Source of the DNA: Chiloscyllium plagiosum
Taxonomy: Eukaryota
Direction: 5' to 3'
Assembly (NCBI RefSeq): GCF_004010195.1
Contig: NC_057719.1
Span: 46,200,021-46,264,020 of the forward strand
DNA: 64,000 bases
Made by a program: the position numbers and the translations under genes
Part shown: positions 63,020-64,000 of the stretch, one piece after another
Layout: every line of letters begins with the position of its first letter
How positions within the stretch are numbered: position 1 is the first letter of the stretch
The notes under the pieces: model-generated
The model's database searches: none
Told to the model about the DNA's origin: nothing
Seen by the model: the letters and a program-made list of their open reading frames with translations, nothing else

Positions 63020-64000
63020 AGGAGAAAGTGAGGTCTGCAGATGCTGGAGATCAAAGTTGAAACTTTATTGCTGGAACAGCACAGCAGGTCAGGCAGCATC
63101 CAGGGAACAGAAGATTCGACGTTTCGGGCACAGGCCCTTCTTCAGGAATGAGCAGAGTGTTCAGCAGGAGAAGATAAAAGGTAGGGAGGAGGGACTTGGA
63201 GGAGGGGCGTTGGAAATGTGATAGGTGGAAAGAGGTCAAGGTGAGGGTGATCGGTCAGAGTAGGATGGAGGGCACCGTCGACCACGTCGGGGGGGAAATT
63301 GCGGTCCTTGAAGAAGGAGGCCATCTGTGTTGTACGTATCCTCCACTTCCCGCTAGTGCCCTCCACCGCATCTCCTCCACTTCCCGCTAGTGCCCTCCAC
63401 CGCATCTCCTCCACTTCCCGCTCCTCCGCCCTTGAGCCCCGCCCCTCCAACCGCCACCAGGACAGAACCCCACTGGTCCTCACCTACCACCCCACCAATC
63501 TCCATGTACAGCGCATCATCCGCCGTCACTTCCGCCACCTCCAAACAGACCCCAGCACCAAGGATATATTTCCCTCCCCTCCCCTATCAGCTGTCCGTAG
63601 AGACCACTCCCTCCGCGACTCCCTTGTCAGATCCACACCCCCCACCGACCCAACCACCACTCCCGGCACCTTCCCTTGCAACCGCAGGAGGTGCAACACT
63701 TGCGCCCACACCTCCCCCCTCACTTCTCTCCAAGGCCCCAAAGGAAACTTCCATATCCGCCACAGATTCACCTGCACCTCCACCCACATCATCTACTGCA
63801 TCCGCTGCAGCCGGTGTGGCCTCCTCTATATTGGGGAGACAGGCCGCCTACTCGCGGAGCGACTCAGAGAGCACCTCTGGGCCACCCGGACGAACCAACC
63901 CAACCAACCTGTAGCACAGCATCTCAACTCCCCCTCCCACTCCACCGAGGATATGCAGGTCATTGGACTCATCCACCGCCAAACCACAACAACCCGACGG
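63020..64000 (+). mobile_element. Penelope-like element (Neptune-like, family A) with inverted 5' segment; runs off the window
   Basis: Open frame 63392-64000: PLVLTYHP...GTFPCNRRRCNTC (Cys linker)...IIYCIRCSRCGLLYIGETGRLLAERLREH (GIY-YIG). 63020-63335 is an inverted copy of the terminus plus an inverted ORF piece (QMASFFKDRNFPPDVVDGALH). Confidence 0.92.
63114..63149 (-). ncRNA. Minimal type I hammerhead ribozyme-like motif in the PLE terminus
   Basis: Minus strand: AUUC-CUGAAGA-A-GGGC(CUGU)GCCC-GAAAC-GUC-GAAU. Stem I AUUC/GAAU, stem II GGGC/GCCC, stem III reduced to palindromic ACGU. Confidence 0.65.

What the first reader, a model, noticed from the sequence alone, without database searches (positions are those of the whole stretch)
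63114..63149. Ultra-minimal, probably dimer-dependent hammerhead motif in a shark Penelope terminus
Seen: the minus strand reads AUUC CUGAAGA A GGGC CUGU GCCC GAAAC GUC GAAU. This gives both conserved hammerhead boxes, a 4 bp stem II, a GUC cleavage triplet and a 4 bp stem I. Across family copies the stem II loop varies (TTAT 7160-7187 and 35173-35200, TTTT 8459-8486, CTGT here) while GGGC/GCCC and the boxes are mostly retained. Established: PLEs carry minimal type I hammerheads, some cleaving as dimers through a palindromic stem III. Inference: GAAAC abuts GUC with no loop, so a monomer cannot form stem III; only two copies pairing through palindromic ACGU could fold. Stem I is intact only in this copy.
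Basis: partly seen in the sequence, partly recalled or inferred. Interest (0 to 1): 0.75.

Follow-up and report, generated by a model that had tools for sequence, protein, structure and literature searches.

The report
Minimal hammerhead in shark Penelope-like retrotransposon
The 36 bases are a stripped-down hammerhead self-cutting RNA motif in the end repeat of a Penelope-like jumping gene from a probable shark genome; it would cut only when two RNA copies pair up, and this design is already described in many animals, so it is ordinary.

Summary
The motif is real: 63149..63114 (minus strand) holds both hammerhead boxes, 4-bp stems I and II and GUC, with no stem III; a strict descriptor finds 5 such sites against 0 in 200 shuffles. 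It lies in the inverted end repeat of a Neptune-type Penelope-like element whose GIY-YIG frame runs on the plus strand. It is not unusually small: 41 of 56 motifs in Cervera and de la Peña 2014 (Fig. S3) have this zero-loop layout, 40 with a palindromic dimer seam, and dimer-only weak cleavage was reported there. 'Stem I intact only here' holds in the window, but this letter is common family-wide (up to 45% of depth), and the 11 other copies start within stem I. Shark copies show no covariation; 25 other lineages with the same core do. No copy starts at the cut site, so uncut RNA was likely the template. Cleavage is untested. The scan has noted this kind many times elsewhere in this genome. 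New member of a known kind; low interest.

The parts
63114..63149 (-). Minimal type I hammerhead motif (family A): stem I 63149-63146 with 63117-63114, box CUGAAGA 63145-63139, extra A, stem II 63137-63126, GAAA 63125-63122
   Evidence: sequence
63119..63122 (-). Self-complementary ACGU (15.1-16.1): predicted intermolecular stem III; predicted cut between 63118 and 63117
   Evidence: sequence; model from PMC4209133 Fig. 1A; nested dimer fold evaluated
63020..63113 (-). Terminal sequence after the hammerhead, to the element's end at about 63020
   Evidence: BLAST to other copies; loose ends pile at 63019-63022 in all four runs (63020 in each)
63150..63255 (-). Pyrimidine-rich non-coding stretch upstream of the hammerhead (likely 3' UTR/pseudo-LTR); held by this copy only among the window's copies
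   Evidence: repeated family-wide at lower depth
63266..63340 (-). Inverted piece of the element's frame, joined to the stretch above; continues in protein terms into the plus-strand frame
   Evidence: tblastn P0001 residues 197-223; loose ends at 63266 and 63327
63389..64000 (+). 5'-truncated frame of a Neptune-type Penelope-like element: CX4CXXC linker and GIY-YIG endonuclease (about 63785-63877); runs off the window
   Evidence: PF01541, E 8.8e-05; 72% to Chiloscyllium proteins
7025..7252 (.). Head-to-head pair of family A ends (hammerheads at 7150 - and 7160 +), 16-base flanking duplication
8084..8297 (.). Head-to-head pair with overlapping, partly broken hammerheads (8174 -, 8170 +)
8456..8535 (+). 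Short family A copy, core intact, loop TTTT
8875..8983 (-). Short family A copy with an internal deletion through the hammerhead; 10-base duplication
21369..21497 (-). Short family A copy, core intact, inserted into a family B copy; 14-base duplication
30608..30743 (.). Inverted terminal piece plus family A copy with damaged GAAA box; 15-base duplication
35038..35263 (.). Head-to-head pair (35166 -, 35173 +); 14-base duplication
40764..40840 (-). Family A copy with stem II loop deleted
22065..22185 (+). Family B: second minimal hammerhead family (palindrome AGCU, triplet CUA, 5-bp stem II in the best copy); further copies at 58342 (-), 21560 (-), 40309 (+, partial)
   Evidence: alignment

Best explanation
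This is a genomic copy of the minimal hammerhead motif carried in the end repeat of a Neptune-type Penelope-like retrotransposon, which likely cuts its RNA after GUC only when two copies pair and probably only with protein help. Shown: the boxes, stems, ACGU palindrome, the neighbouring GIY-YIG frame on the other strand, and that 11 of 11 other copies begin 0-4 bases upstream of the core, none at the cut site. Inferred: in the active parent elements two motifs (the two end repeats of one transcript, or two transcripts) swap strands to form two stems I and one 4-bp ACGU/ACGU stem III (12 intermolecular pairs), completing two active sites; cutting is slow or late, so reverse transcription mostly copies uncut RNA from the terminus up to the front edge of the motif. 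Selection acted on the parent lineages; this copy is likely a passive by-product that happens to keep every core base.
For: Exact match to the published consensus: extra base between 9 and 10.1, G10.1-C11.1, palindromic 15.2-16.2; 41 of 56 representatives in Fig. S3 have zero loop, 40 of these self-complementary (my count). Family B in the same window swaps CG for GC and keeps the palindrome. Of the 40 variant rows shown for the family in four runs, 0 fall in 23 core/stem II positions, 3 in 5 free positions (N7, loop II), 14 in 94 terminal positions (Fisher p 0.003 and 0.038). In window copies 9 of 230 constrained cells differ against 36 of 440 terminal cells (p 0.036). In 25 metagenome lineages picked by the core only, unconstrained pairs covary: 2.2-1.2 paired in 21 of 25 (permutation mean 11.0), 10.3-11.3 in 23 (10.6), 10.4-11.4 in 18 (8.7). 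Published tests: monomer inactive, dimers weakly active; anole element cuts only with its protein, and uncut RNA is the main substrate.
Against: No cleavage data for any shark motif. The active dimer fold is not the predicted ground state (-13.1 against -18.3 kcal/mol), though the same holds for all 14 motifs tried, and stem I has probability 0.04 or less in longer context. Stem I pairs 3 and 4 do not covary beyond chance in the 25 lineages (p 0.23, 0.20). No covariation among 10 shark copies. Window copies are not independent, 3 of 13 pieces were left out of the count (two with deletions in the motif, one without it), and 71 of 111 variant rows were hidden. Only 2 of 117 metagenome loci show a Penelope-like frame within 300 bases. 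The palindrome could not be tested in that set because the pattern fixed it. In a 2026 preprint 8 of 9 Xenopus dimer elements did not cut. The tie between this end repeat and this frame rests on their adjacency in one rearranged insertion.
Confidence: 0.75

Rival explanations
1. Protein-assisted monomer: the element's reverse transcriptase-endonuclease holds one motif in an active shape without a second RNA.
For: The anole motif cut only when protein was added, on a template with one motif; stem I here is unstable alone.
Against: A monomer has no room for stem III; the palindrome is kept through CG, GC, UA and AU versions in 40 of 41 published zero-loop motifs and in families A and B here, which a monomer would not need.
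Confidence: 0.1
2. Non-catalytic role: the motif is kept as a structural signal (protein-binding site, RNA pairing signal or 5' end mark of the transcript), and cutting is incidental.
For: No copy of 12 starts at the cut site; read depth falls about five-fold just upstream of the motif and loose ends pile at 63149; catalytic mutants did not affect insertion in vitro and no RNA ends were seen at the cut site in anole.
Against: The catalytic bases are kept across lineages while N7 and loop II vary, the pattern expected from selection for chemistry.
Confidence: 0.12
3. Chance resemblance, or a wholly dead relic with no selection even in the parent lineages.
For: No covariation among shark copies; 7 of 12 copies have a damaged core or stem.
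Against: 0 strict sites in 200 shuffles; two unrelated families in one window share the layout; high-frequency variants avoid the core. Four of the five core changes in nine copies are CpG transitions, i.e. decay after insertion.
Confidence: 0.03

Closest known systems
Minimal hammerheads (min-HHR) in the pseudo-LTRs of metazoan Penelope-like elements (Cervera and de la Peña 2014, PMC4209133; read: text parts 1-2 of 4 and supplement parts 1-2 of 3)
   Same: No helix III, extra base after A9, G10.1-C11.1, palindromic 15.2-16.2, helix I of 3-5 bp, place in the end repeat, many solo and opposite-strand copies. The Acropora Neptune entry has nearly the same stem II; an Adineta entry has the same AUUC/GAAU stem I.
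   Different: No cartilaginous fish among the 56 listed motifs; stem II (4 bp) is at the short end; no assay of this family.
Small hammerheads of Penelope-like retrotransposons that cleave as dimers (Lünse, Weinberg, Breaker, RNA Biol 14:1499; not held; seen only as title and as summarised in review PMC6765202, passages)
   Same: Very short palindromic stem III, dimer-dependent cleavage.
   Different: Could not check whether shark motifs were included.
Hammerhead of the anole Poseidon element PAc (Frangieh et al. 2024, PMC11167929; read parts 1-2 of 4)
   Same: Stems I and II only; uncut RNA is what gets copied.
   Different: Poseidon clade; there the frame starts in stem II and cutting was shown to need the protein; neither tested here.
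Neptune-clade Penelope-like elements with inverted 5' copies (Craig et al. 2021 PMC8557442; Arkhipova et al. 2013 PMC3846280; passages)
   Same: CX2-5CXXC linker before GIY-YIG, 5' truncation, adjacent inverted end repeat, head-to-head junctions.
   Different: Reverse transcriptase core is not in the window; clade not placed by tree.
Non-LTR retrozymes (PMC7229834, passages; bioRxiv 10.64898/2026.07.22.740005, parts 1 and 3 and passages)
   Same: Type I hammerhead, Penelope-derived, one chondrichthyan genome positive in the preprint.
   Different: Retrozymes are head-to-tail arrays; the copies here are solo or head-to-head.

Membership tests
min-HHR of Penelope-like elements | CUGANGA and GAAA boxes with NUH triplet | tested here: met
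   CUGAAGA, GAAA, GUC
min-HHR of Penelope-like elements | One unpaired base between positions 9 and 10.1; G10.1-C11.1 pair | tested here: met
   A at 63138; G63137-C63126; GC in 10 of 10 copies
min-HHR of Penelope-like elements | No helix III; positions 15.2-16.2 palindromic | tested here: met
   ACGU in this copy; CG in 8 and UG in 2 of 10 copies; AGCU in family B
min-HHR of Penelope-like elements | Short helix I | tested here: met
   4 bp here; 2 bp + U-U + 1 bp in the other common variant
min-HHR of Penelope-like elements | Lies in the end repeat of a Penelope-like element | tested here: met
   Contiguous with frame pieces in an inverted 5' arrangement; the direct 3' repeat is beyond the window, so the tie is by adjacency
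min-HHR of Penelope-like elements | Self-cleavage as dimer, not as monomer | not testable with these tools
   Folding energies do not discriminate
Canonical type I hammerhead | Helix III with loop in one strand | tested here: not met
   GAAAC abuts GUC; no Rfam hammerhead match at E<=10
Canonical type I hammerhead | Helix I of about 6 bp with loop 1-loop 2 contact | tested here: not met
   Stem I stops at 4 bp; no longer helix predicted
Neptune-clade Penelope-like element | C-terminal GIY-YIG with CCHH motif | tested here: met
   PF01541; CXXC inside the core and two later His in the translation
Neptune-clade Penelope-like element | CX2-5CXXC linker before the endonuclease (also in Nematis, absent in Penelope/Poseidon) | tested here: met
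   CX4CXXC in the translation; definition
Neptune-clade Penelope-like element | Reverse transcriptase phylogeny | not tested
   Core not in the window; full-length relatives P0008 and P0012 have RVT_1 then GIY-YIG
Non-LTR retrozyme | Head-to-tail array with a hammerhead in each unit | tested here: not met
   Copies are dispersed or inverted; window only

The most novel reading that the evidence does not exclude
The palindromic hammerhead is the element's RNA pairing signal, like a retroviral dimer-initiation site: it ties two template RNAs together for the two-subunit reverse transcriptase-endonuclease, both DNA strands are primed, and both copies stop at the motif's front edge, giving the head-to-head mini-insertions. 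The two natural stem I variants (GAAU, GAUU) would tune this. For: 3 head-to-head pairs join at that edge; the anole protein is a predicted dimer that extends both strands. Against: the two arms of each pair share their variants, which fits one template better.
Probability: 0.07. Interest if true: 0.6.

Novelty: new member of a known kind. Interest (0 to 1): 0.15.

Why it matters
Little by itself: the design, its place and the dimer model are in print since 2014. What remains open is what these motifs do for Penelope-like elements. This family offers a handy test pair: two abundant natural variants that differ in stem I (perfect, or with a U-U pair and a competing 6-bp GUCGAU self-pairing), and a sharp copy boundary at the motif's front edge rather than at the cut site.

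Tried and rejected
No whole genome is held, so no genome-wide alignment of shark copies. Rfam: no hammerhead match. Metagenome scan for the shark-specific motif: 0 matches; the looser scan gave 117 loci from 7 of 64 parts, none with the shark's 4-bp stem II and loop; hosts not determined. My first clustering (37 clusters) over-split one family and was replaced by 25 lineages. Covariance model from 10 copies found the 12 family A sites and no family B site. Dimer folding energies: active fold never the minimum in 14 motifs, so not discriminating; the B22065 row was mis-built. RNA: no RNA holder listed; 3271 raw reads of polyA single-cell run X21 lay in both orientations, 94% ran on into unlike sequence, and no end pile-up was listed - such a library cannot show ribozyme ends, so no evidence either way. 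Loose ends at 63130 are taken as alignment break-off at the variable loop. Head-to-head pairs rejected as functional dimers: the motifs are on opposite strands and fold into one long hairpin. Host gene context was not established (one search failed). Literature: 'hammerhead ribozyme + shark + Penelope' gave 1 paper, where shark refers only to the name; 'minimal hammerhead + chondrichthyan' gave 0; Lünse et al. not readable, and the preprint's supplements are closed, so shark motifs may be listed there.

Full report
Observation. The minus strand at 63149..63114 carries both hammerhead boxes, a 4-bp stem II with one extra A before it, GAAA followed at once by CG and UC, and a 4-bp stem I. A strict descriptor finds 5 sites in the window and none in 200 dinucleotide shuffles. 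Rfam gives no hammerhead match. The family has 13 BLAST pieces in the window; 12 hold the first box and 5 of those keep core and stem II intact.

Surroundings. A plus-strand frame at 63389-64000 encodes a CX4CXXC linker and a GIY-YIG domain; its best relatives are carpet-shark proteins (72% identity), and full-length relatives have reverse transcriptase then GIY-YIG. The linker marks Neptune (or Nematis) rather than Penelope/Poseidon (PMC8557442). The hammerhead is on the other strand, in an inverted arm made of a short frame piece (63340-63266), a non-coding stretch, the motif and a terminus at about 63020. Inverted 5' copies are a described trait of these elements. So this motif has no same-strand partner in its own insertion within the window. 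The other copies are 80-230-base insertions, five with 10-16-base flanking duplications and three as head-to-head pairs.

The stem I claim. Only 1 of 10 aligned copies has four perfect pairs. Two reasons: the 11 other copies match the long copy for only 0-4 bases upstream of C3 (one long reference only), and most carry GAUU, giving a U-U pair. Laying four runs at 80% likeness shows both letters are common at 63115 (other letter 55%, 29%, 61% of contig depth; 76% of RNA reads). The same AUUC or UUUC / GAUU layout occurs in two other lineages (L028, L046). Depth drops about five-fold across 63145-63160 and loose ends pile at 63149 in X21, so the boundary at the front edge is family-wide; none of the 12 window copies begins at the cut site.

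Selection and covariation. Among shark copies no pair changes on both sides; four of five core changes in nine copies are CpG transitions. Yet frequent variants avoid the core: 0 of 23 core and stem II positions, 3 of 5 free positions, 1 of 8 stem I, 14 of 94 terminal positions, among the 40 of 111 rows shown. A second family in the window has the same layout with AGCU in place of ACGU. A metagenome pattern that fixed only the boxes, the first two stem II pairs and ACGUCG returned 123 matches in 117 loci, 25 lineages; the free pairs covary strongly at stem I pair 2 and stem II pairs 3-5, not at stem I pairs 3-5. Only 2 of 117 loci show a Penelope-like frame in their short flanks, so these speak for the motif class, not for this family.

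Mechanism. In one strand stem III cannot form. Two strands can form a nested structure with both stems I and ACGU/ACGU between them. Its computed energy is -13.1 kcal/mol for this copy against -18.3 for the best dimer; the GAUU variant gives -9.3 against -21.9 through a competing self-pairing. No motif of 14 had the active fold as minimum, and stem I is unstable in context, so help from protein is likely, as shown for the anole element (PMC11167929). Most likely the parents' motif is a weak dimer-dependent ribozyme, uncut RNA is the usual template, and this copy is a passive by-product (0.75). Rivals: protein-held monomer (0.10), structural signal without a need to cut (0.12), chance or relic (0.03). 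RNA reads did not bear on cutting.

Comparison. Cervera and de la Peña (PMC4209133) define this motif, argue the dimer model, show no monomer and low dimer activity, and list 56 examples; by my count 41 have no loop III and 40 of those are palindromic; none is from a cartilaginous fish. A 2026 preprint searched one chondrichthyan with minimal models and found hammerhead repeats. Lünse et al. could not be read. Two searches for shark-specific reports found none. Earlier notes of this scan describe the same kind many times in this genome.

Verdict. Real, correctly read, ordinary: a new member of a known kind, interest 0.15. The boldest reading left, that the palindrome pairs two template RNAs during insertion, is unlikely (0.07) because both arms of each head-to-head pair share their variants.

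Noticed in passing
window 7025-7252, 8084-8297, 35038-35263: Head-to-head pairs of the element's end joined at the front edge of the hammerhead; would fold into near-perfect 90-100 bp hairpins. Arms share their variants.
   Followed up: partly
window 22065 (+), 58342 (-), 21560 (-), 40309 (+), 59304-59359 (+): Second minimal hammerhead family (AGCU palindrome, CUA triplet); the copy at 21338-21570 is split by a family A insertion with a 14-base duplication.
   Followed up: partly
window 52540-52850 (-): Decayed GIY-YIG fragment of a different Penelope-like family; no hammerhead seen after it.
   Followed up: partly
window 63341-63420: A 34-base direct duplication at the junction between the inverted arm and the plus-strand frame.
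   Followed up: no
window 63128-63133 and other family A copies: Loop II plus the next G reads ATG in most copies, GTG here, TTG at 8459; the anole element starts its frame in stem II. Whether a frame starts here was not tested.
   Followed up: no
window 20723-20969, 33019-33265, 51586-51761, 62570-62880: Dispersed repeat of about 215-300 bases (families D3/D9); looks like a shark SINE (label recalled, not tested).
   Followed up: no
window 309-1324, 15890-17760, 43680-45758, 58488-59305, 61279-61788: Several long copies of another repeat with open frames, likely a LINE (recalled, not tested).
   Followed up: no
L001 and 85 related matches; L034, L071: One abundant minimal hammerhead family with a 6-bp stem II and a second hairpin upstream dominates the metagenome hits; some loci hold two motifs on opposite strands.
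   Followed up: no
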